This document shows positions 9,621 through 61,896 of a stretch of DNA of 64,000 nt, one piece after another. The notes under the pieces were generated by a model that ran no database searches, was not told the DNA's origin, and saw only the letters and a list, made by a program, of their open reading frames with translations. Made by a program: the position numbers and the translations under genes. Numbering within the stretch: the first letter of the stretch is position 1; each line of letters begins with the position of its first letter. Origin of the DNA: Candidatus Polarisedimenticolaceae bacterium (GTDB lineage: Bacteria > Acidobacteriota > Polarisedimenticolia > Polarisedimenticolales > DASUFT01); the NCBI GenBank assembly GCA_036274395.1, contig DASUFT010000057.1, forward strand, positions 79 to 64,078. Reading direction: 5' to 3'.

Positions 9621-10691
9621 TCAGGGGCAGGTGGCCGAGGCGTCCTTGGCCGTGACCCCGCAGAAGCCGGAAGGCGTGAAGCCGTGGCGTTCCTGCCCGG
9701 CCGAATCCGAACCCCAGCTGCTCTCGACGCCGGCGCCGTCCGTGCCCACCATCAGGAAGAAGAAGCTGCCTGGAGGAACCGCCGACCAGGTGGCGGTGCC
9801 GCTCGCCCCCAGGGAACAGACGGCTCCATCGAGGGCGTAGGTGGACACGCTGGCCAGGCTCCCGTACAGCAGCGCGTAGTCCGTGGCGGGACAGGAGAGG
9901 GCATCCCAGGTCACCTGCAGGGCATCTCCCGAGGCGGAGAGGCGGCTGCCACGCATCCCGCCGGGGACGGGCGGAGGTCCGGTGGCGATGCAGGCATCGC
10001 AGGAGCAGCTGGTACCCATGCCCAGGGCGGTCCCGCCCTGAAGCGCGCACGCGCCGGCGGTCAGGTCGGCGCAGGGGGTGCCGGTCAGGCAGCAGGACTG
10101 CGGATCGGGGCTGGCGCCGTCCAGCGTGAGACCGATCACGGCGAAGTCCACGTAGAGCGCGATCTTGTAGGTGTCGAAGCCGCGCAGCAGGGTGGTGCTC
10201 GACGGTCCATAGGTGAAGACCATGCCGTAGTAACCGGTGGCGTCGAGGGCGACGGGGTCGGCGAGGCCGTCCTCGCCGTTCAGGACGGGCATGATCTCGA
10301 TCGAGGCCCCGGCGCCCGCGGTGTTGGCGAGGAGCTCGAACGAGAAGGACGTCAGGTCGAAGACCTCGCCGTCGGCGCGCTGGATGGTCATGCGCGCGTG
10401 GTGGTCGGTCACTCCCGGGGGCGGCGTCGTCACCGCCTGCGCTTCCAGGCCCGACGGCCAGGGGACGCGCACGGCCCGGCCGATCGGCTCCCCCGTCCCT
10501 CCCGTGAACAGCTTGTCGCGCGTGTAGGTGAAGAGATATCCCTGGCTGCGGACCGTGTCCGAGGTCACCCCCGCGGAGACGAGGGCGGCGACCTGGCAGG
10601 GCTGGAACCAGGTCGCGGTGTCCGCGTGCGCGGGAAGAGCAAGCGTGGCACACGTCCCCAGGACGACGGCGCGAGCCAGTGCGTGGTGCAT
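9621..10691 (-). CDS. Secreted protein of unknown function (356 aa) carrying the shared C-terminal C-P-stop module
   Basis: The start was trimmed to MHHALARAVVLGTCATLALPAHA, a signal peptide. A Cys-rich linker (CCLTGTPCADLTAGAC...SCSCDAC) is followed by the C-terminal module ...FFFLMVGTDGAGVESSWGSDSAGQER...ATCP-stop. Confidence 0.7.
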   Translation of the reverse strand: MHHALARAVVLGTCATLALPAHADTATWFQPCQVAALVSAGVTSDTVRSQGYLFTYTRDKLFTGGTGEPIGRAVRVPWPSGLEAQAVTTPPPGVTDHHARMTIQRADGEVFDLTSFSFELLANTAGAGASIEIMPVLNGEDGLADPVALDATGYYGMVFTYGPSSTTLLRGFDTYKIALYVDFAVIGLTLDGASPDPQSCCLTGTPCADLTAGACALQGGTALGMGTSCSCDACIATGPPPVPGGMRGSRLSASGDALQVTWDALSCPATDYALLYGSLASVSTYALDGAVCSLGASGTATWSAVPPGSFFFLMVGTDGAGVESSWGSDSAGQERHGFTPSGFCGVTAKDASATCP

Positions 10692-10752: not shown

Positions 10753-13695
10753 TCAGGGACAGCTCCCGCTCAGGTCCTGCGGCCGGTCGCAGGCGCCGAC
10801 ATTGACCGCCTCCGGCCGCTGACCGGCGGTCCCCGCGCCGTAGCTCCCTTCCCGGGTGGCGTTCTGCCCGACCACGGCGAAGTACAGGAGCGTGCCCGGT
10901 GCCAGGGCCCCGGGGTCGAAGACGGCGTGCCCGGTGTTGCCCACGGCACAGGCAACCCCGGTCCACGCGGGGTGTCCCGGGAACGTCCCCGTCCCCCAGA
11001 AGACGGCGTTGTCCGTGGCGCCGCACGCCGGGGTGTAGAGCACGTCGATGGCGCCGCTCGCCGTGCGCGAGGCGGTCATCCCCCCGCTGGCGCTGACCTC
11101 CTTCGGGTTGGGGGCGGTGCCGGTGGCGCAGGTGCCCGGGATCACCGCGTTGCTGACGGACACGTCGTCGATCCACCACCCCTGGCCGGTGACACCGCCG
11201 TCGCTGGAGAACCGCCAGCGCACCTTGACGCTCTGGCCGGCGTAGGCGGCCAGAGACCCCGTGTACGGGGAGGCGGGATAGGCCGGGGTGGCGATCGTGC
11301 GGGAGAAGACGGCGCCCGTGCTGGTGGGGATGCCGCAGGCGTTTCCCGTGAAGGCGATGGAGTCGGCGGGGTAGTTGAGCGCGAGCTTCGTCCAGTCGGT
11401 GTAGTTGGAGGAGCCGGTCGCGATCTCGACGATGCCCAGGTCGAAGCTCGTCTCCATGTCGTACTTGGAGGCGAAGGAGAGGGAGGCCCCGCTCTGCACC
11501 GTCAGCGCCGGAGTGGTGAGGGCGGCGCAGACGTTGTTCCCGTAGGTGCCGGTGGCGTAGACCCCGGGCGCCGACCTGCCCCCCGTGGGCTTGACGGACC
11601 AGGGGTTCGCGAGCGCCATGGCCGCCGGCCCGGAGTCGCCCGCGGTGTCGGTCCAGGTTCCCACCGTCGGTGGACCGGTGGGGGTGGCGGAGACCGTGAC
11701 GAGATTGCCGTCGTCCGCCCCGTTCCCGCCGTCCACGGCGCGCACGATGTAGGCGTAGGGCGTGGCGGAGGTGAGGCCCGCCTGGTCGTTGAGGAAGTTG
11801 CTGGTCAGGCCGGAGGCCACGACGTTGGCGGGAGAGGGGAGGAACGGCGTGGTCGCCGAGCGGTGCACCGTGTAGGTGACCGCACCCCCGCAGCGCGTCA
11901 CGGCCGACGGCCAGAACAGATGAAGGGTGCAGGTGGAGGCAGCGGAGTCCGCCACCCCCATGGCGCCGGCGAAGGAAGGACCCACCGTGCACGGGCCCGT
12001 GGTCGTGGCCTGCGCCACCGCCGAGTCGGCGGACTCGCAGCCCTGGACGGCGCGCACCAGATAGCGGTAGGTCACGCCCCCCGAGACGGGCGCGTCGTGG
12101 TACGAGGTCTGCGCCCCCGGCACCTCGGCCACCAGCGCGAACGCACCACCGGGATCGAGGGCGCGGTAGACGTGATAGGTGACCGCGTTGGCCGCCGGCT
12201 GCCAGGACACGTCGATGGCGCTGTCCCCGGCGGGCGCCGCCGTCACGCCCTGGGGCACGCCCGGCTGCCCCAGGGTGACGTCGGCGGTCTGGGGGCCGGA
12301 GCCGACCGCCACCTCCCGGGTGGCGGTGCAATAGCCGGGCGAGGAGTAGCGGACGTGATAGGTCTGGCCGCTCTGCACGAGCAGCCGGTAGTTCCCCTTG
12401 GCGTCGGCACGGCGCGGCGCCTCGCCGTGGGTGAACGTCACCTCCTGGAGCTCGAGGTTCGCCGATAGAGGGAGGCCCGTCTGGGCATCGGTCACCTTGC
12501 CCCGGATCTGCGCGCCGTCCAGCGTCTCGTCCAGGAAGTACTGCCAGGCGGTGCGCTGGCGCTGCACGGTGAGGTTGCGCCAGCTGGCGTAGCTGGGCTG
12601 GAAGCCGCCGGCCGCGGAGGAGTTGACCTCGATCACGTAGGCGTAGGCCCCGTACTGGTTGTATTGCGTGTCCACGCTGCCGCCGTCGGCGAGGTAGATC
12701 GTGGACCAGATGGGGCCGGTGGCGTACTGGCCGGGGACACCGCTGTCGTTGAGGAGGATGGCGTTCAGCCCCTGCGCCACCTCGTCCAGCGCCGCCCGCT
12801 CGTCGGGATCGTTGCACCCGTACGAGTACATCAGGTACTCGCCGTACGAGTGGTAGGAGAGGGCGAAGAACGGCCGCACCTGCGCCGTGAGCTGCATCAG
12901 CCCCTGCGTCTCCGGCTCCGATCCGGGAGCCGATCCCCTGGTGTCCTGGGCGCTGCAGGAGGCGCTGGAGCCGTTGCAGGAGCCCCACTGCACCGGGTAG
13001 TTGCGGTTGTTGTCCACGGCGCAGGAGGGGTGGCGGTTCTTCCTCCAGGAGGTGTCCGTGGTGAACACGTACATGGCGCCGTCGGGATTCACGCTCCCCA
13101 CCACGTAGATGTTGATGCTGTCCAGCCAGCGCTGGACCTGGGGATCGGTGGCGTACCGCGACGTGAGGTAGTCGATCATGTCGCGGGCGATCTCCGGAGT
13201 CATGACCTCGCGGGCGTGGTGCTGGGCGTCGAGCACGAAGGAGGGGCGCTCGTTGGCGAGCCCGACGTCCTTGGTGAGGTGGAGCACGTACTGCGTCTGC
13301 CCCTCGAACAGCGGGCTCTGGCTGATCGACTTCTCGGCCAGGTTCGGATACGCGGCCACCACCTGGTCCATGAAGGCCGACATCTCCTGGGGATCGGTGT
13401 AGTCCGCCAGCGCCCGGGTGGCGCTCGGCTCCACGTTGCTCCCGCGCACGGTGACCGCGAAGCCCTTGGCCTGCAGGTCCGCCAGCTCCTGCTCGGTCAC
13501 CACCAGCCCCACCGCCAGCGCCTTGCGGTCGATGCCGGCGACGTCGAACCCTTCCAGGGCCAGGGTGCGGGCCGCCTCCAGCGAGGGGACCGTCACCTCC
13601 ACGAAGAGCCTGGGCTCCGGAGTCTCGGCGCGGAGAGTGCCGCCGGCCACCACCAGGGTGGCGGCCACGAGCAGGCGTCGGAGGTTGCTTGGCAT
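10753..13695 (-). CDS. Secreted M14-family zinc carboxypeptidase (980 aa) with a CarbopepD_reg-like domain, two FN3-like domains, a jelly-roll-like domain and the shared C-terminal module
   Basis: The start was trimmed to MPSNLRRLLVAATLVVAGGTLRA (ATG at 13695). M14 motifs are QHHAREVM (HxxE), VNPDG, WRKNR and SYHSYGEYL. The C-terminus reads ...LLYFAVVGQNATREGSYGAGTAGQR...SGSCP-stop. Confidence 0.9.
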   Translation of the reverse strand: MPSNLRRLLVAATLVVAGGTLRAETPEPRLFVEVTVPSLEAARTLALEGFDVAGIDRKALAVGLVVTEQELADLQAKGFAVTVRGSNVEPSATRALADYTDPQEMSAFMDQVVAAYPNLAEKSISQSPLFEGQTQYVLHLTKDVGLANERPSFVLDAQHHAREVMTPEIARDMIDYLTSRYATDPQVQRWLDSINIYVVGSVNPDGAMYVFTTDTSWRKNRHPSCAVDNNRNYPVQWGSCNGSSASCSAQDTRGSAPGSEPETQGLMQLTAQVRPFFALSYHSYGEYLMYSYGCNDPDERAALDEVAQGLNAILLNDSGVPGQYATGPIWSTIYLADGGSVDTQYNQYGAYAYVIEVNSSAAGGFQPSYASWRNLTVQRQRTAWQYFLDETLDGAQIRGKVTDAQTGLPLSANLELQEVTFTHGEAPRRADAKGNYRLLVQSGQTYHVRYSSPGYCTATREVAVGSGPQTADVTLGQPGVPQGVTAAPAGDSAIDVSWQPAANAVTYHVYRALDPGGAFALVAEVPGAQTSYHDAPVSGGVTYRYLVRAVQGCESADSAVAQATTTGPCTVGPSFAGAMGVADSAASTCTLHLFWPSAVTRCGGAVTYTVHRSATTPFLPSPANVVASGLTSNFLNDQAGLTSATPYAYIVRAVDGGNGADDGNLVTVSATPTGPPTVGTWTDTAGDSGPAAMALANPWSVKPTGGRSAPGVYATGTYGNNVCAALTTPALTVQSGASLSFASKYDMETSFDLGIVEIATGSSNYTDWTKLALNYPADSIAFTGNACGIPTSTGAVFSRTIATPAYPASPYTGSLAAYAGQSVKVRWRFSSDGGVTGQGWWIDDVSVSNAVIPGTCATGTAPNPKEVSASGGMTASRTASGAIDVLYTPACGATDNAVFWGTGTFPGHPAWTGVACAVGNTGHAVFDPGALAPGTLLYFAVVGQNATREGSYGAGTAGQRPEAVNVGACDRPQDLSGSCP

Positions 13696-19704: not shown

Positions 19705-19709
19705 GCCGC

Positions 19710-25892: not shown

Positions 25893-25893
25893 C

Positions 25894-26361: not shown

Positions 26362-26365
26362 GACG

Positions 26366-31400: not shown

Positions 31401-31474
31401 ACCGGGCGGTGCTTCTGCGCGCAGCCGGCCATGGGTGCCGCCGCCAGCGCCAGGAGGAGCGTGAGACGGCGCAT
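28418..31474 (-). CDS. Large TPR-repeat lipoprotein (1018 aa)
   Basis: The start was trimmed to [18 protein letters not shown], a lipobox. Many TPR-like pairs run along the whole length, for example [64 protein letters not shown] and [20 protein letters not shown]. Confidence 0.85.
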
Positions 31475-37468: not shown

Positions 37469-37491
37469 GGGCCGCCTCCTACATGCCCGTT

Positions 37492-37517
37492 CTTTCTACT
37501 ACTGGCGTAGTAGAAAG
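37492..37517. promoter_or_regulatory. Probable BlaI-type operator, a perfect 11-bp inverted repeat with a 4-bp spacer
   Basis: The sequence ctttctactac-tggc-gtagtagaaag lies 24 bp upstream of the blaI-like start, in the only AT-enriched patch of this intergenic region. It contains the TAC/GTA half-site core seen in BlaI/MecI-family operators. Confidence 0.6.
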
Positions 37518-41292: not shown

Positions 41293-44200
41293 ATGCGAGC
41301 GTTTGCCGCCGTGTGCCTTCCTCTCGCCGTGCTCGCGGCGCGCGCGGCCCAGCCAGAACCGATCTCCGAGCGCACGCTGAGCGTCGCCGTGGTCGTGCAC
41401 CGGGACGGCGCCGCCCTGGCGGCTTACACGGTGAAGGCACGGCCGTTCCTGGCCGCGGAGGGCGCGACCAGCGCCTCGCAGCAGCTGGAGGTGGTGCTCC
41501 GTGGGCCGGAGGGGGCCGCCATCGTGCGCACGCAGCCGATCCAGGGGCTCTGCCTGGAGCACCCGCGCGGCGCGGAGCCCCACATCACCGGCGACACCAT
41601 CCTGCTCCACGAGGAGACCTTCGTCGTGGAGCTGCCGGAGCTTCCCGGCTTCGACCAGGTCTCGGTCGGCGTCCAGGAGGACACGGGCAAGGCGTCCCGG
41701 TCCATGGCCCTGGGCACGTTCGCCCTCGACGCCGGGCACTTCCAGCGCGCGGCCGGCGAGCTGGCGTACGAGGACCTGGCGATCGCCGGGCAAGGGGTGG
41801 ATCTCCCGGTGGGCTCGCCCGCGCCGTTCGCGGCCACCGTGCACTGGCCCGAGGAGTACAGCGACCCGGACGTCTACCGCGTCTACGGCGACGCCGCGGA
41901 GGTGGCCCGGCGCATCAACGTGGTGATCGTCCCCGACGGCTATCGCTACCAGGACAAAGCGCTGATGGAGAGCCACGCCGCGGCGCTGGTGGCGAGCTTC
42001 CGGGCCAAGACCCCTTTCGCGCAGCACGACTCCTTCTTCAATTACATCCTGGTCTACGCGTACTCCACGGCCAGCGGCACCGATCAGTGTGACTGCTCCG
42101 TCGTGGCCGACACGGCGATGGGCACTCGATTCCCGTTCGGCAACGGCATCTGCGGGCACTCGGACAATCGCTGCCTGTACTACGGCTCCGGCTGCGACAG
42201 CGACGGCCAGTTCAACATCGCCAGCGCCGAGCTGCGCGCGCCCGCCATGGACGAGAGCGTGGTGATGGTCAACACCACCCGCTACGGAGGGTGCGGGGGG
42301 CAGCGCGCCGTCTACTCGGCGGGGCACAGCGCGGGGCCGGACGTCGTCACCCACGAGCTGGGCCACTCCTTCAACGGCTTGGCGGACGAGTACGACGGCA
42401 CCGCGGCCTGCGGCACCTCGGCGGGCGAGATCAACACGTCACGCAACGCCTCCACCGGTGCCTGGCCCGAGTGGATCTCCCAGATCGGTGCGCCCTGGCA
42501 GGGCGCGCAGTACTACAACCAGTGCCTCTACCGGCCGCTGTCGAACTGTCACATGCGCTCTCTCGGTCCGGCGTTCTGCCCGGTGTGCATCCAGCACCTG
42601 TCCCTGGGGGTGTTCGGCCACTTCCGCGTTCATCCCACGGCGCCCATCACCTCGGCGACGCCCGAGCCCACGCCCACGCTCCCCGTGGGCCTGCCCAACC
42701 ACTTCGAGGTCGTGACGCGGCTCCCCCAGGGGGGCATCAACGCCATCACCTGGACCGTTAGCGGCCCGGCCAACCCCACGCCCGTGGTGGTGCAAACCGA
42801 CTGGCCCTACCTCGACTACGTGTTCCCCCAGGAGGGCCAGTACCAGGTGAGCTGCGAGGTGATCGCGGACACGAACTTCATCAAGCCCTCCAGGTACGGC
42901 GCCAACCGCGACACCCAGTTCTGGCTGGTGACGGCGACCTGCGTGGGGGGCGGGGGCAGCGGCCTGCCCGACGGCGACGGGGACACGGTGGCGGACGTCT
43001 GCGACAACTGTCCGCTCCTGCCCAACCAGGCCCAGACGGACAGCGACGGCGACGGTGAGGGCGACGCGTGCGACGGCTGTCCGCTCGATCCCGGGAACGA
43101 CGGCGACGGAGACGGCCTCTGCGCCGAGGTGGACAACTGTCCCGGCCTCGCCAACCCCGGCCAGGAGGATGGCGACGGAGACGGGGCGGGGGACGCCTGC
43201 GACAACTGCCTCGCGCTCGCCAACCCCGGCCAGGAGGAGAGCGACGGCGACGGCGTGGGGGACGCCTGCGACAACTGCCCCGCGGCGGGGAATGCCGGCC
43301 AGCAGGAGAGCGACGGAGATGGGGTGGGGGACGCCTGCGACAACTGCCTCCTCAATCCCAACGGCGGCCAGGAGAACCTCGACGGAGACCCGAACGGCGA
43401 CGTGTGCGACAACTGCCCCACCGTGGCCAACGCCAATCAGTTCAACGGGGACGGTGACGGCCTCGGAGATGCCTGCGATCCCTGTCCCGCCGACCCGCTG
43501 AACGACATCGACGGGGACGGGCGATGCGCGCAGGTGGACAATTGCCCCTTCGCCGCCAACCCCGGTCAGGCCGACTCCGAGCTGGCGCCCCCCGCCGCCC
43601 TGGTGCAGTGGGCGTCTTTGGTCACCGCCAGCAGTCAGTGGACGGCGGACGAGTACTCGGCGATGCAGGCGGCCGGTCCGCCCCAGTATCCCGGCCAGTG
43701 CGTCGATGCGCCCTCCAACTGGTCGCCTGCCACGGACACGTCGAACCCCGAGTGGCTCGAGCTCGTGTATGCGACCCCCGTGCTGGCGAGCGCCGTCTCC
43801 GTCCACGAGCAGACGGAAGCACCGTTCGTGACCGCCGTCCAGCTGCGGGGGACGGACGATGCCTTGCGCACGGTGTGGGCGGCGGCGGATACGACGCTGT
43901 GCGGAGAGACGCTCGAGGTGGCCTTCTCCCCCCGTCCCTACCTGGCGGACGCGGTCGTGGTGCGGACGGCGGCCCCCTTCTTCGAGGAGGTCGATGCCGT
44001 GGGCCTGGAAGGTGTGGGCCGGGTCGCGGTTCCCGACGGCGTGGGGGATGCCTGCGACAACTGCGCCGGCTCCCCGAACGCCGGCCAGAGCGACTCCGAC
44101 GGCGATGGGGTCGGCGACGCGTGTGACTGCGCTCCCACGGATCCGGCATCCGCGGGGCCGGGCGGGGTGACCGGTCTCGTGGTCGCCAAGCCGACGCCCG

Positions 44201-44472
44201 ATACCGCTCGGCTGAGCTGGACGGCGGTCCCGGGCGCGGAGGCGTACTCCATCACGCGTACCGGCCTGGCCGAGGTGGGGACGTGGGCGTACGGACCGTG
44301 CCTGGCGGAGGGCATCGCCGGGACCGCGTTCGACGATCCGGCGCTCCCGGCCTCCGGGCAGGGTTACGTGTATCTCATCCAGCCCTGGACGGAAGCGTGC
44401 GGCGCGGGCACGCTGGGGGAGCAGGCGCCGGGGAACGAGCGCTTCAACGCCGACCCCGACCGCTGCCGCTAG
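41293..44472 (+). CDS. Secreted M64-like zinc metalloprotease (1059 aa) with thrombospondin type 3 repeats, a galactose-binding-like domain and the shared C-terminal module
   Basis: Signal peptide [35 protein letters not shown] is the M64-type HExxH...DEY motif. At least 7 TSP3 units (DxDxDGxGDxCDNC) are present. The C-terminus reads ...[38 protein letters not shown]-stop. Confidence 0.88.
43003..43480 (+). repeat. In-frame tandem coding repeats (mostly 69-bp / 23-aa units) encoding thrombospondin type 3 calcium-binding repeats
   Basis: Units recur with the pattern gacaactg(c/t)c...ggccag...gacgg(c/a)ga(c/t)gg...gg(g/c)ga(c/t)gc(c/g)tgc. They translate to DNCPxxxNPxQxxxDGDGxGDAC. Confidence 0.8.
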
Positions 44473-45414: not shown

Positions 45415-46191
45415 TCAGTTCGCCGCCAGAGCCTTGTCGAGATCCGCCTTGAAGGAGTCGTAGGGCTTGGCGCCCACCATGGCCACGATGCCCTTCACCT
45501 TCTTGGGGTCCTTGGGGTCGGTGAGGGCGATCATGAAGCTCGGGGTGCCGGTGATGCCGCCCTTCTGCGCTTCCTTCATGTCCGCCCGGATCGCTTCGGC
45601 GTGCTTGTCGTTCTTCATGCACGCCTCGAACTCGGGGACCTTCAGGCCGATCGCCTCGGCGTGCCCGTTCCAGGGCTCGAGCGCCTGCTGGTTGGTGAAG
45701 AGGCGATGGTGCATCTCCCAGAACTTGCCCTGGTCACCCGCGCAGCGCACGGCCTCGGCCGCGTCGAAGGCCTTGTTGTGCATGGGCAGGGGCATGTCCA
45801 GCATGGCGTAGCGGATCTTTCCGGAGTCGATGTAGTCGGTCGCGATCTTCGGGTACGTCTCACGGACGTATCTCGAGCAGAACGGTCACTGATAGTCCGT
45901 GAACTCGACCAGGGTCAGCTTGGCGGTGGCGGAGCCCTTGGTGGGGTTCGCTCCCAGGTCGAACACGATGTCCTTGACGTTCGGTCCCGCCGGCGCGGGC
46001 GGGGCCTGCCGCGCCGCCATCAGCTTCTTGATCTCCTCGAGCTGCTTCAGGATCTCCTGCTGTCCCTGCTTGAGCCCGTCGATCTCCTTCCGGAGATCGT
46101 CCTTCGATTCCTGCGCGAGGACGGAGGCGGGAGCGGCCGCCAACAAGGCCGCCAGCGCCGCCCCGGTCCCCCTCGAGATCACCTTCCGCAC
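45415..46191 (-). CDS. DsbA-like thioredoxin-fold oxidoreductase (258 aa). It reads through an in-frame TGA at codon 102, at the first Cys of the CxxC motif, and is a probable selenoprotein (UxxC).
   Basis: Track ORFs 45886..46191 and 45415..45804 are in the same frame (777 nt in total). My translation across the junction reads KLTLVEFTDYQ-TGA-PFCSRYVRETYPKIATDYIDSGKIRYAMLDMPLPMH. The family consensus at this position is EF.DyqCPfC. The gene has a GTG start with AAGGAGG upstream and a signal peptide followed by a coiled-coil N-terminus. Confidence 0.7.
45854..45870 (-). other. Candidate bacterial SECIS-like hairpin downstream of the in-frame UGA
   Basis: The minus-strand RNA reads UGA-CCGUUCUGCUCGAGA-UACGUC-CGUGA-GACGUA. 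This is a 6-bp stem starting 15 nt after the UGA, with a 5-nt apical loop containing GU. A short lower stem (UCG/CGA) is also possible. Confidence 0.4.
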
Positions 46192-48409: not shown

Positions 48410-51070
48410 TCATGGACAGGCGACGCCGTCCCGCGGGCTCCCGTGACTGGCGGCGCCGTAGGTGCCGGTCCCGCACGCATTGCGGGCGCGGACGAGGTAC
48501 CAGAAGGCGGAACCGGGCGGGGGCACCGTGACGTCGGCGATCGAAGACGACGTGATGCCCGAGGCGAGACACGCATCCGAGGCCCCGCCCACCGGGAGTT
48601 CTCCCACGACACCGCGCAGGACCTGATGCTGCGTACCGGAACCGGCCCCGGGCGCCGCCGAGATCCAGGACAGCGTGGCGCGATCATCGCCGAAGGAGAG
48701 ACCGGCGACCTCGCCGGGGGCCGCGAACACGGCGGGGTCGTCGAGGCGGCAGTCCGCGAGGTTGTGGGTCCCGTCCCCGTCCGCGTCGGCGGGGCCGAGC
48801 TGATCGAGGTCGAAGACGAACATCGATCGTCCGTGAGTCCCGGCGAAGAGCTGGCGCGAGGGATGGACGAGATCGAGGTCGGGAACGACGACGCTGGGCA
48901 GCCCCGCTCCCAGCAGCGACCACGACGCTCCGTAATCATCGGTGACGAAGACGCCGAGATCGCTTCCCACGAAGAGGCGGCCGCGCATGGCCGGATCGGG
49001 GTCGGCGTTCACGCAGTTGAGGGGGACGTCGGGCAGGCCGGCACCGATGTCGGCCCAGGTCGCCCCGAAGTCGAGGGTGCGGAAGATCCTGGGAAGGGGC
49101 GAGCCGTGGTGATAGCCGGAGTAAGTGACGTAGGCGGACGAGATGGAGAACGGGTCGGCCTCGACGCGCGTCACCCACTCCGCGCGGCCGGGCACGTCCA
49201 CCCGCGTCCACGATGCCCCGCCGTTCTCGGTGACCCAGAGGTTGCCGTCGTCCGTCCCTGCCCAGACGACGTTCAGGCTCAGGGGGGACGCGGCGATCGT
49301 CGTCACCGTCCCCTCCGCCACGTTCTCGACATGATCTCTGACCTCGGTGCCGGCTCGCCTGGCGGAGACGGAGGAGGAGGGGGAGGCATGAGCGAGGGCG
49401 GGGGCACCGTCGGTGAGGTCGGCGCTGATGGGCTCCCAGTGCGCGGCACCGTCCACCGAGCGGTAGACCCGGTCGGTCCCGGCGTAGAGGCGCTGTGCCG
49501 TCCTGGGGTCGTGGACGATGGGAGCGTTCCAGTTCTTCCGGTCGTTCTGGTTGATTCCCTGTTCCCCGTACTCGAAGGTGTCGCCCCCGTTGGTGGAACG
49601 CCGGATGTTGCCGTGCGCGGACTCGCAGTAGACGCGGAGGTGCTCGACCGGGTCGACCTCGCACTGGAACCCGTCACTGGCCAGGATGTTGTTCCAGCTT
49701 CCCGATCCTCCGTCGATCGTGCGGAGCGTCCCCATGTCCTGCGAGCCGCCGTAGCGCCGGTCCGGGTCCACGGGGTCGATGCCGAGATCGTAGAACTGGG
49801 TCACCGCCATGGAGGGCGCGTGCGTCCACGTGCTCCCCAGGTCGGTGCTTCGATAGAAGCCGCCGTCGTTCGCGAGGTAGAGGCGGTCGGGCAGGATCAC
49901 CAGGTCGTGGTGGTCCGCGTACCCGGCGAAGGAAAGGGCGAAGCTCTGCGCCCCGTCCGTCGAGCGCAGCCAGTCCATGTCCAGGACGTAGACGACGCTG
50001 GCGTCGGCCGGATCGACGCGGATCTGTCCGCAGTAGCCCGGGTACCCCCCGAATGCCTGCCTGGCCCCGGACGCGCTCCGTCGTGACCAGCTCTGCCCGC
50101 CGTCGGTCGTCCGGTAGACGCCCATCGGCTTCCCCTCATCGTCGGTGTAGAGGGCGTAGACGGTCTGCGGGCTGGACCTCGCGATGGCGAGGCCGATGCG
50201 TCCGACGTCGGCGGCGCTCGCGGGCAAGCCGCCGCCGAGCCGGGTCCAGGTGTCGCCGCCGTCCAGCGATCGCCAGATCCCGCTGTGGAACCCGGAGGGA
50301 ACCCACTGGGTCGGCGTGCTGAAGTGCTCCCAGATGGCAGCGTAGATCCGCGACGGGTTCGAGGGGTCGATCGCCACGTCGATGGCGCCCGCCGTGGGTG
50401 CGACGAACAGCACGTTCGTCCAGGTCGTGCCGCCGTCGAGCGTGCGGTAGACGCCCCGCCAGGTGTCGCTGACGTAGACGTTCCCCGCCGCCGCCACGAA
50501 GACGCGCTGCGGGTTCACGGGGTCGATGGCGATCCGACCGATCCGTCTGGTGGCTTCAAGTCCCAGGTGCTGCCAGGTGAGCCCGCCGTCGAGCGTGCGG
50601 TAGACGCCGTCGCCGTCGTAGGAGTAGCCCGCGCCATTGGCCTCCCCCAGACCCACGTAGACGATGGCGGAGCTGGTGGGATGCGTCGCGAGGGCGCCCA
50701 CGTTCAGGACCGGCTGGGCGTCGAACACCGGAGTCCAGGTGTTCCCCGCGTCACGGGACTCGAACACGCCACCGGCCGCGCCACCCGCCCAGACGTGGTC
50801 CCGGTCGTTGGGGTCCACCGCGAGAGAGGTCAGCCGGCCGCCCACGTTCGTCGGTCCCGCGGGAACCCAGGTCCCGGGAGCGCGCGGCAGCGCCGCCCTG
50901 CGGTACCGGGCGTCGGCCGGGATGGGATCGCCGCCGGACAGGCGCTGCCGGGCGAACCACGACGCCGCCGGAGGGCGCCCGCCCTGGTCGAGGTCCGGGG
51001 GGCGGTGGACGGTGCACGCGGTGGCGCCCAGCACAAATACCGCGAGAAGACACCTGCGGAGCATCGTCAC
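48410..51070 (-). CDS. Sortilin/VPS10- or GH74-like BNR (Asp-box) double beta-propeller lipoprotein (886 aa) with the shared C-terminal module
   Basis: The lipobox is VLGATAC. Twelve Asp-box-like motifs are present: [88 protein letters not shown] and TDDYGASW. The C-terminus reads ...[34 protein letters not shown]-stop. Confidence 0.88.
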
Positions 51071-51200: not shown

Positions 51201-54200
51201 ATGCAAGGAGCGCAATCCGTCCCACAGGCAGCAACTTGTGTCTTCCGCTCGGCGCTTGGGGTCCTCGCCCTCGTTGCGGCGGCGGGCAGGGCAACCCCGG
51301 CCAGTGCCCAAAGCTATGCGTACGTCGGGATCGCGGGCGTCGAGCCCGCCGCGGAGGGAGCTCCGCCAGCCCACGTGGTGGCCCTGGGGGCCGGAGACTT
51401 CGACGGAGACGGTGTGCCGGACCTCGTCTCCGGTCTGGCAGCGGAAGGCAAAGGGGCACTGGCGCTGCATCGCGGGGCCGTCGATGTGCTCGGAGTCGTT
51501 GGCGGCACCACCGCCATACCCTTTCTTCCCGGCGTTCGCATCGCCGACGTGCCCGTGGTGCCCGAGCTCCTGGGCACCGGGGACTTCGACGCCGACGGCG
51601 ACGTGGACTTGCTGACCGCGGCCCGAGGAGGCCGGACGCTCTTCCTCTTTCCCGGAGACGGTCACGGTCGGTTCGAGAACGTCCGTCGGGTCCACCTGCC
51701 GGGATCGGTGACGGCGCTCCAGGTCGGCGAGATCAACCAGGCGGACGGCCTGCCCGATCTTCTCGTCGGCGTGCGCTCCACCCTGGGAGCGCAGCTTCTC
51801 GTCTTCGAATCGCCCCGGGGCGCGGTGGAAGACCGTCCCGAGGTCTTCGATCTTCCGGCCGAAGCGAAGGCTCTGGCCCTGGGGCGGCTGGACGACGATC
51901 ACCTCGTGGACCTCGCCGTCGCCAGCGGCGATCACCTCGTCCTGCTGCGGGGCCGGAATCGGCGCCTGTCCCTCGATGCGCGGCTGCAGGAAGAGGTCGG
52001 CCGACCGACCCTGGCCGTGCGCTCTCTTCCCTTCCCTCTCGCTTCCGTCGCGGTGGTCCAGCGCACGGAGGGCGCCGGCTCCGAGGTCGTGGTCCTCTCC
52101 GGTGAGGGCAGGATGGAGATCCTGGACACCGAGCGGCTGCGCTCGGTCTTCGCACCCGGTGACTGGCGCACTCGGCCGGTCGGGGCCTCCGATCCTCGGC
52201 GGCGGGCCATGGCCGCGCAGCTGGCGCAGGCTCGACTGACCGCAGCCTCCCGCGAGGCGCTGCGCTCGAGCGTGGGGCTCGGGATCGACCAGGGGAGCCC
52301 GGTGACGGCTCTCCTCCCCATGCGGCTGAACGGAGATGCGCTCACCGATTATCTGATCGCCCATGCCGAGGGCGGCGATACCGCGACGGCAGCGGTGACG
52401 GTGCCGTCGTCGACCTTCACGGTGACCACGACCAGTGACAGCGGCACGGGATCCCTGCGGAGCGCGATCTCCCTGGCCAACCAGACCCCGGGCGCCGATC
52501 TCATCGCCTTCGCCATTGGAACCGGGCTCCAGACCATCAACGTCCTTTCCGCGCTGCCTGCGATCACGGAGACGCTCGTCATCGATGGGACCACCCAGCC
52601 CGGGTTCTCCGGCACCCCGCTGATCATGCTCAACGGAACCCTGGCCGGGGCAACCTCGAGCGGTCTGCGCATCAACGCTCCCAGCTGTCTCCTGCGCGGC
52701 CTGATCGTGAGCGGCTTCAAGGACAACGGGATCCTCGTCTCGGGTGCGGCGGCGAGGGGGAACGTGATCGAGGGGTGCTACGCGGGCACCGACGCCACCG
52801 GCACGAGTGCCTTGGCCAACGGCGACGACGGCATCGAGATCGGCGGCAACGCCCAGGCCACCATCGGCGGCACCGTGACCAGCGCCCGCAACGTCATCTC
52901 CGGGAATGCCTGGGACGGGGTGTACGTGGACGGCGTGGGCGGGACCGGCGGCAGCGTCGTCCAGGGGAACTTCATCGGGGTGGACGCGACGGGAACGGCG
53001 GCCCTGGGGAACGGGTACCACCCGCAGGGCTTCTTCATGGGGATCGAGCTGGCCAGCGGCACGGATGGCAACGTCATCGGCGGGACGGCGGCAGGGGCGG
53101 GCAATGTGGTGTCGGGCAACGCCTTCATCGGCGTGGGGATCTTCCAGCCCGATTCCAGCGGCAACCTGATCCAGGGGAACAGGATCGGGACCAACGCCGC
53201 GGGGACCGCCGCCGTCGCCAATGTCTATGGCGTCGCCATGCGCTTCGGGCCCCGGAACAACCTGGTGGGAGGCACCGTCGTCTCCGCCCGCAACGTCATC
53301 TCCGGGAACTCGCGGAACTGCTGCAACACCACCCGGGACGGGATCCTGATCGATTCCACCAGCGCGCCGGGGGACACCAGGGACAACGTCGTGCAGGGCA
53401 ACTACATCGGCACCGACGTGAGCGGCACCGCCGCGCTGGCCAACGGGATGCACGGGGTGGAGCTCGCCTTCGGCACGCTGGCGAACACGGTGGGGGGGAC
53501 CGGGGACGGCGCCGGCAACGTCATCTCCGGGAACCTCCAGATGGGCGTGGGGATCTTCAACCCGGGGACGAACAGCAATTACGTCCAGGGGAACGCCATC
53601 GGACTGAGCGCCACGGCCGGCCTGGCATCCCGGGCGGCCGCCCCTGCGCGGGCGGACATCTTCGTGGAGGCCTCGCCGGGAACAGAGACCGATGCGGCGG
53701 TGGCTCTCGAGGATGGCGAGGTCACGGCCGAGGCGGCATCCAGCGCGGGCCGGCCCAGAAATGGGTTCGCGGTGGACCGGGAAGCGGTCGAGGGGAAAGC
53801 GACGCGGAATGACGTCCTCGAGGGAGGGGCGGACCTCGTCACCAACGGGCCCGCTGCCGGACAGGGATCCGGCGCCGCGGCCCCCCCTCACGCCGTCGGC
53901 AATCTCATCGCCGGAGTGGGGATCTTCTCCGGTGCCAAGAACAACGTGGTGGGCGGATCGGCACATGCAGCGGCAAACGTCATCTCGGGCAATCCCAACG
54001 ACGGGGTGCTCCTCACGCAGAACGGGACCAGCGACAACGTGGTGCAGGGGAACCTCATCGGAACCGACCCCGCCGGGAGCACCGCGATCCCCAACGGCTT
54101 CGCCGGGGTCGAGATCGCCTTCGGCGCGACCCTCAATGTGGTCGGAGGCACCCTCGCCGCGGAGGGGAACGTGATCGCCGGCAACACCAGCGTGGGCGTG

Positions 54201-55886
54201 GGGATCTTCAACCCGGGCACCAACTACAATCGTCTGGAAAGCAACCGGATCGGCACGCAAGGGGACGGCATCGCGCCCCTGGGAAACGGCTCGCACGGGG
54301 TGACGGTCACGAACTCGGCGGGGGCAGCCAACACCATCGGCGGTCCGCCGAACACAATCGCGTACAACGGAGGGGCCGGAGTGTGGGTGGCCGCCGGTTC
54401 CCCGAACCCGACGCTGGAGAGGATCAGCGGCAACGCCATCTTCTCCAACGGAGGCCTGGGGATCGACCTCGAGCCGGCAGGCATCGACGTCAACGATGCC
54501 TGCGACGCCGACGGCGGGCCGAATGGCCGCCAGAACGCTCCTGTCCTCACGTCGGCCACGATCTATCTGGGGAGTGTGACGGTGGAGGGAACGCTCGACA
54601 GTACTCCCAACGACGCCTTCACCATCGAGCTCTTCGCGAGTGACGCCTGTGATCCTTCCGGCTACGGAGAGGGGCAGGGCTACCTGGGTTCGCTCACGCT
54701 CGGGTTCTCACAGACCTGCGCCAGGAGTTTCCAGGTCACCTTGCCGGAGGCTCCTGGCACGTCGGTCACGGCGACCGCGACCAGCCTGGACGGGAGCACG
54801 TCGGAGTTCTCGAACTGCATCCCGGTGACCTGCTTCGATTCGGACGGGGACGGCGCCTGCGAGATCGCCGACAACTGTCCATCCGTCGCCAACGCGGACC
54901 AGGCCGACCTCGACGGCGACGGACGGGGGGACGCATGCGACAACTGCGCGCTGGCGGCCAACCCGGATCAGGCCGACTCCGACGTCGTGCTGGAAAGCGT
55001 CATCCGCCAGTGGGCGGCCACGGCGATCGCCAGCAGCGAATACTCGAGCACCGACTATGGGGCGGTCCAGGCCACCGGGACGCCGGAAGCACCGGGAGCC
55101 TGCGCCGATCTGCCCACGAGCTGGTCCCCCCTCACCTCGGAAGCCACACTGGAATGGATCGAGCTCGGCTACGCGACACCGGTGCGTGCGCGGAGCGTCG
55201 AGGTCCACGAGAAGCTGGAGGCTCCCTTCGTCACCGGGATCGACGTGCGGGACACGCAGGGCGCGCTGCACACGGTCTGGGCGGCGACGGACTCCACGAG
55301 CTGCGGAAGCGTGCTCGTGGCCTCGTTCCCCGAGGTGCCGTATCTCGTCCAGGGTGTCGTGGTGCGCACCGCGAAGCCGGGGTGGGAGGAGATCGACGCC
55401 GTGGAGCTGGTGGGGGTCGCCGTGGGCGTGGGGACGACGCCGGCGCCGGACGGGGTGGGAGACGTCTGCGACAACTGTCCGGAAAGGAACAATCCCGCCC
55501 AGGCCGACGCCGACGATGACGGCGCCGGAGACATCTGCGATTGTGCGCCGGCGGATCCCGCCGCCACCGGCCCCGGCGAGGTGACGGGGTTGCAGCTGGG
55601 CTCGCCGCTCCCCGGCGTGACGCGGCTGACCTGGGCGGGCACGGCGGGCGCCGACGACTACGGCATCACGCGCGGACTGCTGTCGAACCTGACCGGTGGG
55701 GCCTACGGCAGCTGCCTCACCCAGGGCCTCACCGCGACCTCCTACGACGACGGGACGGCTCCGCCCCTCGGCAACGGCTTCGCCTATCTTCTCCAGGCCC
55801 GGGGGGCGGCCTGCGGATGGGGCTCGCTGGGGAGCGACTCCGCGGGTCTGCCTCGGGTCAACGGAGATCCCGAGGCATGTCCGTGA
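51201..55886 (+). CDS. Giant secreted protein (1561 aa): FG-GAP/VCBS-like repeats, a CSLREA-type entry motif with long right-handed parallel beta-helix repeats, TSP3 repeats, a galactose-binding-like domain and the shared C-terminal module
   Basis: The start was trimmed to [36 protein letters not shown] (ATG at 51201). [12 protein letters not shown] and [12 protein letters not shown] are FG-GAP-like. [23 protein letters not shown] is followed by more than 15 units of the type NVISGN...GV.I......N.VQGN.IGTD..GT.A..N. TSP3 units read [24 protein letters not shown]. The C-terminus reads ...[38 protein letters not shown]-stop. Confidence 0.88.
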
Positions 55887-57783: not shown

Positions 57784-57941
57784 GACCCCTCCTTGCGGCC
57801 GCGAGAGTGCGGCTCTCCTTCGCTTCTACGCCTGGTGTCGCCGCCGGTCAAGCCCGCTTGCAGCGGGGCGCGGTGGGGCAGCAGCGGCAAGCGTACGCGC
57901 CGCCACCTCTGCGGCTAGACTGGCCTGCGCGGAGAGGGGGG

Positions 57942-58454
57942 ATGCCAGCGACGAGGGAGAGGGCCGACCTCGAGGAGCTGTTGGCGCGCGTGCGTCGCGC
58001 GGTGGCCCGGACGTGCCCGCGCGCGCTCGCTTCGCAGGCCGACGACATCGCGCAGCTCGTCATCGTGCGTCTGCTGGAGTCGGGCCGGGCAGATGGGGGG
58101 GGCGAGCCTCCCCCGACGTCCTATCTCCTGAAGGTCGCGTGGACCGTCGCGGTGGACGAGATTCGCCGGCGGAGCCGCCGCCCCGAGGTCCGTTTGGAAG
58201 CCATGCCCTCCCCGGTCGCCCCCGAGGACCCCGAGCGCGCGGCGTCCTCGCGAGAGATCGGCGACGCCATCACCGCCTGTCTGGGCACGGTGGCGCCGTC
58301 GCGGCAGGCCACCGTGGCCCTCCAGCTCCTCGGCCACTCCGTCCCCGAGATCGCCGCCCTGCTCGGATGGTCCGGGAAGAAAACCGAGCACCTCGCCGCC
58401 CGCGGGCTTCGCGATCTGCGCGCCTGTCTCGAGAGGAAGGGGGTGATCCCGTGA
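57942..58454 (+). CDS. ECF-type RNA polymerase sigma factor (170 aa)
   Basis: The start was trimmed to MPATRERADLEELL (ATG at 57942, GGAGAGGGGGG upstream). Region 2 reads DDIAQLVIVRLL...YLLKVAWTVAVDEIRRR. Region 4 reads LGTVAPSRQATVALQLLGHSVPEIAALLGWSGKKTEHLAARGLRDLRACL. Confidence 0.85.
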   Translation: MPATRERADLEELLARVRRAVARTCPRALASQADDIAQLVIVRLLESGRADGGGEPPPTSYLLKVAWTVAVDEIRRRSRRPEVRLEAMPSPVAPEDPERAASSREIGDAITACLGTVAPSRQATVALQLLGHSVPEIAALLGWSGKKTEHLAARGLRDLRACLERKGVIP

Positions 58455-59086
58455 TCGAGGATCTGCGCGGGCCCTTCCTCGACCGGTCCGGGGTGGTCCC
58501 GCCGTGCCCGCCCGCGGAGGCGCTGTGGGATGCGGCCCACGGGCGCGGCGACAGGGCGGGGAGGGAGGCCATCGCGGCGCATCTCGCCGCGTGTCCCGCC
58601 TGCGCCTCCAGCTGGAGACTGGCGCAGGAGCTGCGCGAGCAGCCCATGGCGGCGCCGGCCGGGGGAGGGCGGCTGGGGTCGCGGCTCCTGTGGGCTCTGG
58701 CGGCGGTGGCGGCGGGTGCCGTCCTCCTGGTGTCGCCGCTGCGCGAGCGGTTCCGAGAGGGAGGGACGGAGGCTCCCGTCGTGTACCGGGCGCCCGGAGC
58801 AGGCGAGCCTGTATCCGAGATTTCCGACTTGAGCGTGTTGCCCCGGGAGGCCTTCGTGCTCCGCTGGTCGGGAGGGCCGCCGGGCACGCGATGGGACCTC
58901 GAGGTATCCGACGCGAGCCTCCGCCCGCTCCACCAGGCCGGCGGTCTGACGGCGCCCACGCAGCGTGTCCCCGCGGACGCTCTGGCTTCGCTTCCTTCCG
59001 GAGCGACGGTCCTCTGGCAGGTGCGTGCCCGTCTCCCCGATGGTCGCGTGCTGGTCTCGGAAACCTGGCGTGCGAGGCTGGAGTAG
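58451..59086 (+). CDS. Single-pass anti-sigma factor with a zf-HC2 motif (211 aa)
   Basis: There is a GTGA start/stop overlap with the sigma gene. HLAACPAC matches H-x3-C-x2-C. A TM segment (LLWALAAVAAGAVLLV) is followed by a roughly 110-aa extracytoplasmic domain. It is the in-frame C-terminal part of track ORF 57710..59086. Confidence 0.8.
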   Translation: MIEDLRGPFLDRSGVVPPCPPAEALWDAAHGRGDRAGREAIAAHLAACPACASSWRLAQELREQPMAAPAGGGRLGSRLLWALAAVAAGAVLLVSPLRERFREGGTEAPVVYRAPGAGEPVSEISDLSVLPREAFVLRWSGGPPGTRWDLEVSDASLRPLHQAGGLTAPTQRVPADALASLPSGATVLWQVRARLPDGRVLVSETWRARLE

Positions 59087-61877: not shown

Positions 61878-61896
61878 ACACGCGAGGGAGGACGCC

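What the first reader, a model, noticed from the sequence alone, without database searches (positions are those of the whole stretch)
55570..55886. A recurrent roughly 95-aa C-terminal module ending in C-P-stop on five unrelated secreted proteins, a candidate sorting or anchoring tag
Seen in sequence: five proteins with different catalytic or structural N-terminal parts end with an alignable module. They are the unknown protein 9621..10691, the M14 carboxypeptidase 10753..13695, the M64 protease 41293..44472, the BNR propeller 48410..51070 and the beta-helix protein 51201..55886.

The tails read:
- PPGSFFFLMVGTDGAGVESSWGSDSAGQERHGFTPSGFCGVTAKDASATCP
- APGTLLYFAVVGQNATREGSYGAGTAGQRPEAVNVGACDRPQDLSGSCP
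- [40 protein letters not shown]
- [36 protein letters not shown]
- [40 protein letters not shown]

Upstream of these tails all five share an L(S/T)W...Y.(I/V).R / ...C(L/A)... segment that resembles an FN3-like strand pattern. The module is always the very last domain and always ends with Cys within 2 residues of the stop. It has no TM helix, so it is unlike the PEP-CTERM, MYXO-CTERM or GlyGly-CTERM sorting signals.

Inference: a strictly C-terminal domain shared by many cargo types is the signature of a dedicated secretion or attachment tag, as with the T9SS C-terminal domain. Five copies in 64 kb is a striking density.
Basis: partly seen in the sequence, partly recalled or inferred. Interest (0 to 1): 0.72.

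Follow-up and report, generated by a model that had tools for sequence, protein, structure and literature searches.

The report
Cysteine-stapled FN3 end-domain on exported proteins
Five exported proteins in this Acidobacteriota-like window end in an unannotated, disulfide-stapled fibronectin-III-type domain that sits almost always at the very C-terminus and, in one cargo family, occupies the slot where relatives carry known surface anchors, so it is a plausible but unproven localisation module and not a sortase-type signal.

Summary
The quoted tails are real. All five proteins have Sec-type signal peptides and end in Cys plus one residue. They are not one module but two FN3 subfamilies. Type A is on the M64 protease, the BNR propeller and the beta-helix protein. 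Type B is on the unknown protein and the M14 carboxypeptidase. The two types are no closer to each other than each is to ordinary bacterial FN3 repeats.

Type A models confidently as an FN3 beta-sandwich with a short extension and four conserved Cys. Neither type matches Pfam, NCBIfam or any PDB sequence.

In samples not selected by position, 103 of 115 type A copies and 89 of 96 type B copies end within 3 residues of the stop. The 61 carriers scanned hold 54 Pfam families. Relatives are almost all Acidobacteriota.

Homologs of the unknown protein's N-terminal domain (60-70% identical) end in PEP-CTERM, IPTL-CTERM, GC-type dockerin or dockerin. So the module sits in an "anchor slot".

Against a pure sorting signal: complete copies, each still ending in Cys-Pro, occur internally in some proteins. 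No partner gene recurs nearby. There is no TM helix or Arg cluster.

Best reading: a folded C-terminal docking or retention domain. Function is inferred, not shown.

The parts
55506..55886 (+). Type A module of the beta-helix/FG-GAP protein (aa 1436-1561): one TSP3-like Ca-binding repeat ending in DCAPADP, an FN3 core, AACGWG, and a tail ending in EACP-stop.
   Evidence: for sequence and coordinates. AF2 model of residues 55554-55883: pLDDT 90.4, pTM 0.82. Best Foldseek matches in the PDB are all FN3 domains.
44092..44472 (+). Type A module of the M64 peptidase/TSP3 protein (aa 934-1059), ending in DRCR-stop.
   Evidence: It is 49% identical to the beta-helix protein across a 366-aa C-terminal cassette.
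48410..48787 (-). Type A module of the BNR/Sortilin-type propeller (aa 762-886), ending in VACP-stop.
   Evidence: Full-length orthologs at 66-70% identity in loci L001-L003, L028, L030 and L040 keep the module at the C-terminus.
9621..9974 (-). Type B module of the 356-aa unknown protein (aa 240-356), ending in ATCP-stop.
   Evidence: P0179, a 94% identical homolog of the protein's N-terminal domain, carries the same tail.
10753..11109 (-). Type B module of the M14 carboxypeptidase (aa 863-980), ending in GSCP-stop.
   Evidence: The closest fragments, P0004 and P0007, are 75% identical.
9621..10691 (-). Carrier 1. It has a signal peptide (MHHALARAVVLGTCATLALPAHA), a roughly 190-aa unannotated 'choice-of-anchor'-type domain, a Cys-rich linker and a type B module.
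10753..13695 (-). Carrier 2. Domain order: signal peptide, Peptidase_M14, CarboxypepD_reg, two ordinary FN3 domains, a MAM/choice-of-anchor-J-like domain, then a type B module.
41293..44472 (+). Carrier 3. Domain order: signal peptide, Peptidase_M64, TSP3 repeats, an unknown domain of about 150 aa, a TSP3 repeat, then a type A module.
48410..51070 (-). Carrier 4. It has a signal peptide that may be a lipoprotein signal (..LGATA|C), a Sortilin-Vps10/BNR propeller and a type A module.
   Evidence: The lipobox reading is from the sequence only.
51201..55886 (+). Carrier 5. Domain order: signal peptide, FG-GAP repeats, a right-handed beta-helix-like repeat region, TSP3, an unknown domain, TSP3, then a type A module.

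Best explanation
The tails are two subfamilies of a bacterial FN3 domain that has acquired cysteine staples and a short C-terminal extension ending in Cys-Pro. In type A, four conserved Cys probably form two disulfides.

Proposed mechanism:
1. The carriers are exported by Sec.
2. The domain folds and is oxidised in the periplasm.
3. It then serves as a folded C-terminal localisation module. It docks or retains diverse exoproteins on a cell-envelope or matrix partner without a covalent bond, functionally like a dockerin or GC-type dockerin. It is not a cleavable sortase-type signal.

What is shown:
- the FN3 fold, firmly for type A only
- the conserved Cys pattern
- Sec-type signal peptides
- strong C-terminal bias
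- cargo diversity
- substitution for known anchors in one cargo family
- restriction of close relatives mainly to Acidobacteriota

What is inferred:
- disulfide pairing, proposed as lead-in Cys with the FG-loop Cys and strand Cys with the terminal Cys
- the docking function
- the existence of a binding partner
For: Fold:
- The type A AF2 model has pLDDT 90.4, and its top PDB matches are all FN3 domains.

Cysteines:
- Cys occupy profile positions 32, 92, 124 and 146 in 88-97% of 101 distinct type A domains, and 84 of them have all four.
- A two-Cys variant on an M64 homolog in L058 keeps only the strand Cys and the terminal Cys. Two further domains lack both position 32 and position 124. Both observations fit the proposed pairing.

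Position:
- 103 of 115 type A domains and 89 of 96 type B domains end within 3 residues of the stop.
- Terminal dipeptides: CP in 81 type A carriers, and CP in 49 plus CD in 14 type B carriers.

Cargo:
- 54 Pfam families occur in 61 carriers, including Kelch, Sortilin/BNR, TSP3, cohesin, LamG and S8.

Anchor slot:
- Among the 120 best homologs of carrier 1's N-terminal domain, a regex classification of the tails gives about 37 PEP-CTERM-like, about 23 IPTL-CTERM-like, 36 dockerin/EF-like and 4 ending in GC (3 GC only, 1 also dockerin-like). Only one carries the module.
- NCBIfam confirms the anchors above cut-off: TIGR04174 at 23.5-24.3 bits (cut-off 20.5), TIGR02595 at 25.3-26.8 bits (cut-off 16), NF041540 at 61-64 bits (cut-off 29).

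Clustering and export:
- 17 of 102 loci hold two or more separate C-terminal carriers, and the window holds five.
- All five window carriers have N-terminal signal peptides.
Against: - No binding partner or processing gene was found. No non-carrier gene family recurs in more than 3 of the 25 genome loci plus the window.
- Complete modules occur internally. They are interleaved with TSP3 repeats in P0071, P0092 and P0098, and 5 of 115 copies in the loci are internal. The domain therefore also works as an ordinary building block.
- C-terminal bias is also typical of carbohydrate-binding and other accessory domains that are not sorting tags.
- The anchor-slot argument rests on one cargo family and on type B only.
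- The type B fold model is weak (pLDDT 66.8), and its Foldseek matches are not significant.
- If the BNR carrier is a lipoprotein, it would not need a second anchor.
Confidence: 0.42

Rival explanations
1. It is an ordinary accessory domain. On this view the disulfide-stabilised FN3 module is a spacer, stability cap or substrate/polysaccharide-binding module, comparable to FN3, PKD or CBM modules at the ends of secreted hydrolases. It plays no part in sorting or in retention on the cell.
For: - The profile belongs to the huge bacterial FN3 family: 25,448 representative hits, with giant FN3 arrays at the top.
- Type A is closer to generic FN3 repeats than to type B.
- Complete internal and tandem copies exist.
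- No conserved partner gene lies nearby.
- The M64 and beta-helix proteins share a 366-aa cassette, which shows spread by ordinary domain shuffling.
Against: - About 90% of copies in both subfamilies sit at the extreme C-terminus. That is unusual for FN3, which is typically internal or repeated.
- In carrier 1's family the slot is otherwise filled almost only by recognised anchors.
- Carriers cluster in genomes.
Confidence: 0.38
2. It is a true secretion or sorting signal for a dedicated, still unknown outer-membrane export and attachment machine. It would work like the T9SS C-terminal domain: a folded beta-sandwich that is recognised, translocated and then cleaved and/or linked to a surface polymer.
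For: - The signature matches that of T9SS CTDs: a beta-sandwich of about 100 aa, an extreme C-terminal position, very diverse cargo, and many carriers per genome region.
- The module replaces sortase-type signals in one cargo family.
Against: - There is no match to T9SS CTD models (TIGR04183, TIGR04131, PF18962) at permissive thresholds.
- The closest relatives are Acidobacteriota. T9SS is known only from the Bacteroidota/FCB group; that statement rests on my own knowledge.
- Internal copies keep the same C-P end.
- No candidate machinery gene recurs near carriers.
- No conserved cleavage motif is evident at the domain's N-terminal boundary.
Confidence: 0.15
3. It is a chance resemblance or a compositional artefact of a 71% GC genome.
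For: Pairwise identity among the five tails is only 25-32%.
Against: - Leave-one-out E-values reach 1e-15.
- There are hundreds of relatives with conserved Cys and G/R positions.
- The fold prediction is confident.
Confidence: 0.01

Closest known systems
Bacterial fibronectin type III (FN3) domains
   Same: Type A has the same fold: the top Foldseek matches include 5g56, 3mpc, LAR and titin FN3 domains, with TM about 0.55-0.64. It shares the same strand signatures (LxW, YxVxR, YxYxVxAxNxxGxG). The profile cross-hits thousands of FN3 arrays.
   Different: - Generic repeats carry about 0.3 Cys each, whereas these modules carry four conserved Cys.
- These modules have a roughly 20-35-aa extension ending in Cys-Pro.
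- About 90% sit at the extreme C-terminus, whereas generic FN3 domains are mostly internal or tandem.
- Pfam fn3 does not score the tails even at E <= 10.
GC-type dockerin domain (NCBIfam NF041540) and type I dockerin (PF00404)
   Same: Each is a folded C-terminal domain without a TM helix, placed on diverse exported proteins. Both occupy the same slot on homologs of carrier 1. The GC-type dockerin also ends in a C-terminal Cys.
   Different: There is no sequence match, since NF041540 and PF00404 do not hit the window tails. The fold class differs: FN3 beta-sandwich versus EF-hand-like Ca-binding repeats. No cohesin-like partner has been identified.
T9SS C-terminal domain (Por_Secre_tail, TIGR04183/PF18962)
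   Same: It is a beta-sandwich of about 80-100 aa, strictly C-terminal, on many unrelated cargo proteins, with many carriers per genome.
   Different: There is no model match. The lineage is Acidobacteriota rather than Bacteroidota. The module is disulfide-stapled. Internal copies exist. No machinery is known.
Tripartite C-terminal sorting signals (PEP-CTERM, IPTL-CTERM, MYXO-CTERM and others)
   Same: They are C-terminal, occur many times per genome and sit on diverse cargo. They are interchangeable with the module in one cargo family. Some also carry an invariant Cys (10.1101/2023.06.07.544157).
   Different: Those signals are 20-40 aa long: a signature motif, a TM helix and an Arg cluster. 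The module is a 110-125-aa folded domain with no TM segment and no basic tail.

Membership tests
FN3 domain superfamily | Seven-stranded FN3 beta-sandwich fold | tested here: met
   Type A: AF2 pLDDT 90.4, and all top PDB matches are FN3 domains. Type B: the model is weak (pLDDT 66.8). Its best matches are FN3/Ig-like but not significant, so type B is inconclusive on fold alone.
FN3 domain superfamily | Sequence-profile relationship to FN3 domains | tested here: met
   The A2 profile hits giant FN3-array proteins over its core positions 40-127. hhalign against generic bacterial FN3 repeats gives 95.5% for type A and 79% for type B. Pfam PF00041 itself does not hit the tails.
Tripartite C-terminal sorting signals (PEP-CTERM, MYXO-CTERM, IPTL-CTERM, GlyGly-CTERM) | Hydrophobic transmembrane segment after a short signature motif | tested here: not met
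   The tail folds as a beta-sandwich. The maximum KD(19) is 0.57-1.44. No NCBIfam CTERM model hits at E <= 1.
Tripartite C-terminal sorting signals | Arg/Lys-rich cluster at the extreme C-terminus | tested here: not met
   The proteins end in ..CP or ..CR, with 1-3 basic residues in the last 12.
Tripartite C-terminal sorting signals | Location at the C-terminus, with multiple occurrences per genome on varied cargo | tested here: met
   The window holds five carriers in 64 kb.
Tripartite C-terminal sorting signals | Co-occurring dedicated sorting enzyme (sortase, exosortase, rhombosortase or myxosortase) | not testable with these tools
   Whole genomes could not be profiled. No recurrent neighbour gene was found within +/-10 kb in the 25 genome loci. 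Nothing sortase-like is present in the window.
T9SS C-terminal domain | Match to the TIGR04183/PF18962 (type A) or TIGR04131 (type B) models | tested here: not met
   There are no such hits for the five proteins in NCBIfam at E <= 1, or for the tails in Pfam at E <= 10.
T9SS C-terminal domain | Host genome encodes T9SS machinery (Bacteroidota/FCB lineage) | not testable with these tools
   Only 64 kb is in hand. The relatives are Acidobacteriota MAGs, which are not known to have T9SS. That last point rests on my own knowledge.
Dockerin / GC-type dockerin | Match to PF00404 or NF041540 (EF-hand-like Ca-binding repeats) | tested here: not met
   There are no hits on the window tails. The same models do hit homologs of carrier 1's cargo domain.
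Pre-peptidase C-terminal (PPC) domain, PF04151 | Match to the Pfam model | tested here: not met
   There is no Pfam hit on the tails at E <= 10.

The most novel reading that the evidence does not exclude
The Cys-stapled C-terminal FN3 modules (types A and B, plus further variants such as the two-Cys form in L058) are the cargo tags of a previously unrecognised surface-localisation system in Acidobacteriota. This would be a folded-domain tag analogous to the T9SS CTD or the dockerin. A dedicated receptor or export partner encoded elsewhere in the genome would recognise it, and it would take over the role that PEP-CTERM/exosortase and IPTL-CTERM play in other lineages.
Probability: 0.2. Interest if true: 0.8.

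Novelty: new variant of a known kind. Interest (0 to 1): 0.5.

Why it matters
Acidobacteriota are among the most abundant soil bacteria, yet how they display or retain their many exoenzymes and adhesin-like proteins is largely unknown.

This domain is absent from Pfam, NCBIfam and the PDB. It is common in soil metagenomes: one narrow 9-residue pattern alone found 321 relatives. It marks the C-terminus of very diverse exported proteins.

It would therefore be a useful annotation handle for the surface and secreted proteome of these organisms. If a partner exists, it would define a new localisation system. Even if it proves to be only a structural cap, a model for it would name a recurrent unannotated region in these proteins, which has hundreds of relatives in soil metagenomes.

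Tried and rejected
1. Pfam and NCBIfam scans gave nothing on the tails, at E <= 10 for the isolated tails in Pfam and E <= 1 for the whole proteins in NCBIfam.

2. PDB sequence searches with the type A and type B profiles gave only marginal integrin FN3 hits (E >= 0.1) for A and nothing for B.

3. I searched for a sixth copy in the window. None was found; the best other ORF scored E about 0.01-0.07. Two large exported proteins run off the window edges, at 2-3949(-) and 61810-63999(+), so their C-termini are unknown.

4. I looked for the window's own contig through exact protein look-ups. Nothing was on record.

5. I looked for a conserved partner gene near carriers by all-against-all BLAST of ORFs from the 25 genome loci and the window. 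Only the carriers themselves recur, plus a generic histidine kinase in 3 loci. The DsbA-like gene next to the carriers in the window does not recur.

Both large-collection scans therefore used the narrower BNR-type alignment A3, so the positional statistics for type A come from that sub-branch.

7. The top-150 list of the exhaustive representative search is ranked by summed score. It is therefore dominated by multi-repeat proteins and cannot serve as an unbiased positional sample.

8. Disulfide pairing could not be read from the AF2 model, because coordinates are not returned. Only Cys co-occurrence was used.

9. Literature searches on Polarisedimenticolia, C-terminal sorting with Acidobacteria, choice-of-anchor, IPTL-CTERM and GC-type dockerin found no description of this module.

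10. A regex scan for PEP-CTERM-like ORF ends in the window and all loci found only spurious matches.
Full report
**Observation.** The window is 71% GC.
- Each protein begins with a Sec-type signal peptide. The BNR protein's "LGATA|C" could be a lipobox; that reading is from the sequence only.
- Each ends in Cys plus one residue.
- The N-terminal parts are as described: Peptidase_M14 with CarboxypepD_reg and a MAM-like domain; Peptidase_M64 with TSP3 repeats; a Sortilin/BNR propeller; FG-GAP with a beta-helix-like region and TSP3; and one protein with no Pfam hit.
- A leave-one-out HMM built from four tails recovers the fifth at E = 4e-5 to 1e-15 in the six-frame translation of the window. Nothing else scores better than E about 0.01.
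- The resemblance is therefore real, and there are exactly five copies inside the window.
- Two further large exported proteins run off the window edges, so their ends are unknown.

**Not one module but two.** Splitting the enlarged alignment (A2) by its Cys pattern gives two types.
- Type A is on the M64, BNR and beta-helix proteins. It starts with a TSP3-like Ca-binding repeat ending in "DCxPxDP". An FN3 core follows, then "NACGxG", then a short extension "..S.G..R....CP".
- Type B is on the unknown protein and the M14 protein. Its pattern is "ACGATD ... CxxG ... EGSYG..SAGERPE..C......CP".
- A type A-only HMM scores the two type B tails at 0.7 and 19.3 bits. The two ordinary internal FN3 domains of the M14 protein score 14.8 and 17.4 bits, so the type B tails do no better.
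- Profile-profile comparison gives A vs B 88% (E = 3e-6), A vs generic bacterial FN3 repeats 95.5% (E = 1e-8), and B vs generic 79%.
- The "LSW ...
- The M64 and beta-helix proteins share a whole 366-aa C-terminal cassette at 49% identity, so they are not independent carriers.

**Fold.**
- With the 32-sequence alignment, AlphaFold2 models the beta-helix protein's tail at pLDDT 90.4 and pTM 0.82. The model is an all-beta domain whose last 25 residues are irregular.
- The best Foldseek matches in the PDB are all FN3 domains.
- The type B model is weak (pLDDT 66.8). Its best matches are FN3/Ig-like but not significant.
- No Pfam or NCBIfam model matches either tail, and no PDB sequence matches significantly.

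**Cysteines.**
- In 101 distinct type A domains, Cys occupy four profile positions in 88-97% of sequences: the lead-in "DC", the strand "CL", the FG-loop "ACG" and the terminal "CP". Eighty-four domains have all four.
- Type B also has four Cys, but two of them sit at different places.
- A variant on an M64 homolog in L058 keeps only the strand Cys and the terminal Cys, and ends in "PCTP".
- From this co-occurrence, and from FN3 topology in which the N-terminus lies near the FG loop, I infer two disulfides: lead-in Cys with the FG-loop Cys, and strand Cys with the terminal Cys. This is inference.
- The final Cys-Pro is kept in internal copies, where it is followed directly by "DxDxDG". It therefore marks the end of a disulfide-closed domain. 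It is not a motif that depends on being at the carboxy-terminus.

**Distribution and position.**
- An exhaustive search of 1.84 billion representative proteins with the A2 profile gives 25,448 hits. The top of the list is giant FN3-array proteins that match only the core, so the module belongs to the FN3 superfamily.
- In that list, which is biased towards multi-copy proteins, complete Cys-stapled copies occur internally. P0071, P0092 and P0098 have three each, interleaved with TSP3 repeats. P0141 and P0152 have two copies each, and P0148 has one internal copy.
- For a sample not chosen by position, I scanned DNA collections with short patterns from the FN3 F-strand/FG-loop region.
  - The scan of 185,579 species-representative genomes found 25 loci. 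Nearly all are Acidobacteriota MAGs, variously labelled Polarisedimenticolia, "gp22" or Terriglobia.
  - The metagenome scan found 321 relatives, of which the best 80 were kept.
- A six-frame HMM scan of all 105 loci finds 115 complete type A domains. Of these, 103 end 0-3 residues before the stop, 7 end 4-30 residues before it, and 5 are internal. Seventeen of 102 loci contain two or three separate carriers.
- For type B, 89 of 96 complete domains in 101 database proteins end 0-3 residues before the C-terminus. Most of those proteins are fragments, and the few exceptions look like read-through.
- Sixty-one full-length carriers hold 54 different Pfam families, including Kelch and Sortilin/BNR propellers, TSP3, cohesin, LamG, CBM96 and subtilase.

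**The anchor slot.** This is the most informative result.
- The roughly 190-aa N-terminal domain of the unknown protein (window 10047-10622, no Pfam or NCBIfam hit) has 623 homologs. The 120 best are about 60-70% identical and include sequences from Phycisphaerae.
- Their C-termini are interchangeable. Some end in "GIPTxSEWG" plus a TM helix, some in "VPEPS" plus a TM helix and an Arg cluster, some in dockerin-like repeats with or without PEP-CTERM, and some in domains ending "..AGC". Only one of them, P0179 at 94% identity, carries the type B module.
- Curated models confirm IPTL-CTERM, PEP-CTERM and the GC-type dockerin above their cut-offs. Pfam dockerin appears in the precomputed domains.
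- The type B module thus occupies a position that evolution otherwise fills with recognised anchoring or docking domains.
- The M14 protein's MAM-like domain also resembles the domain that precedes the sorting signal in rhombosortase- and myxosortase-dependent M36 peptidases. That support is weak.

**What it is not.**
- It is not a tripartite sortase-type signal, which consists of a signature motif, a TM helix and an Arg cluster as defined in 10.1101/2023.06.07.544157. The module is a folded domain of 110-125 aa with no TM segment and no basic tail.
- It does not match the T9SS CTD, dockerin or PPC models.
- No non-carrier gene recurs near carriers. The window holds nothing sortase-like; its other genes are listed under the things noticed in passing.

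**Mechanism.**
- I favour, at about 0.4, a folded and disulfide-locked C-terminal docking or retention domain. It would be a functional analogue of dockerin or GC-type dockerin, exported by Sec and oxidised in the periplasm. It would hold diverse exoproteins on an envelope or matrix partner.
- The main rival, at about 0.38, is an ordinary accessory, stability or substrate-binding FN3 domain whose terminal position merely reflects domain shuffling.
- A true T9SS-like export tag served by an unknown machine is possible, at about 0.15.
- Chance is excluded.

**Novelty and score.**
- The fold and superfamily are known. The Cys-stapled, C-terminally restricted subfamilies are not described in the libraries or papers searched, and neither is their placement in an anchor slot.
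- I rate this a new variant of a known kind, with interest 0.5.
- It would rise sharply if a co-occurring partner were found, and fall if the domain proves to be a passive cap.

Noticed in passing
window 10047-10622 (-): The roughly 190-aa N-terminal domain of the 356-aa unknown protein has no Pfam or NCBIfam hit. It nevertheless has 623 homologs, the 120 best at about 60-70% identity, including some from Phycisphaerae. They carry interchangeable C-terminal anchors: PEP-CTERM, IPTL-CTERM, GC-type dockerin and dockerin. This is an unnamed 'choice-of-anchor'-type domain. In the IPTL-CTERM homologs and the window protein it is followed by a Cys-rich linker, CCLP..SC....C..QGG..QG.G..C.C..C.
   Followed up: partly
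window 43561-44100 (+) and 54960-55510 (+): The M64 and beta-helix proteins share a 366-aa C-terminal cassette at 49% identity. Its middle section of about 150 aa ('QWA..ASS....Y.A.QA.G.P..PG.C.D.P..WSP...') has no Pfam match, apart from a trailing TSP3 repeat.
   Followed up: partly
window 2-3949 (-): A large exported protein (DUF7948, SBBP beta-propeller repeat, DUF11) has three MopE-type 'putative metal-binding' motifs near its end and runs off the left edge of the window. Its C-terminus is unseen, so it could be a further carrier.
   Followed up: no
window 61810-63999 (+): A signal-peptide protein with long Gly/Thr-rich repeats ('GGTLAGAGDLSVAGLTTWTGGTMAGGGITTAGGGLALSGS..KVLNPRTLRNP') has no Pfam hit and runs off the right edge of the window.
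   Followed up: no
window 45415-45885 (-): A DsbA/thioredoxin-like gene lies between the M64 and BNR carriers. That is plausible for oxidising the Cys-rich exported proteins, but no such gene recurs near carriers in the other loci.
   Followed up: partly
L058 6184-8109 (-): An M64 peptidase homolog is 50% identical to the window's M64 catalytic part. It lacks TSP3 repeats and ends in a third, two-Cys FN3 variant ('..NLYRNGACIV..WTYLVTGVTSSGEGTMG..ATPCTP'). The type A/B profile did not report it as a carrier in that locus (threshold E <= 1e-5). The family of Cys-terminated FN3 end-domains is therefore broader than the two types.
   Followed up: partly
P0071, P0092, P0098 (representative proteins): These proteins are built of TSP3 repeats interleaved with three complete Cys-stapled FN3 units of a distinct 'YKGR...HTCF...NCFGES.LG...CP' variant. 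This internal, repeated form of the module comes from unknown taxa.
   Followed up: partly
window 24909-33345 (-): This is an ExbB-ExbD-ExbD cluster (26775-27767, 26366-26818, 25894-26361) with an unannotated 327-aa gene and several large TPR proteins. It looks like a Ton/Tol-like energy-transducing module.
   Followed up: no
window 14692-24851 (-): Two giant exported proteins lie here. One is a 1939-aa OmpA-domain protein. The other is a 1713-aa protein with DUF11, SdrD_B and DUF7927 domains. The latter does not end in the module. The end of the OmpA-domain protein was not inspected, though no sixth copy was detected anywhere in the window.
   Followed up: no
window 35355-37495 (-), 5341-8464 (-), 57786-61877 (+): Regulatory pairs lie in these regions: a BlaR1-type M56 peptidase with a BlaI-type repressor; a KaiC-like double ATPase with a histidine kinase; and an ECF-type sigma factor next to a 970-aa CHAT-domain protein.
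   Followed up: no
L019 (VBMI01000144.1): One weak type A-like match lies on a contig binned as a Methanobacteriota archaeon MAG. It comes from the same soil study as the acidobacterial 'gp22' MAGs, so it is probably a binning error.
   Followed up: no
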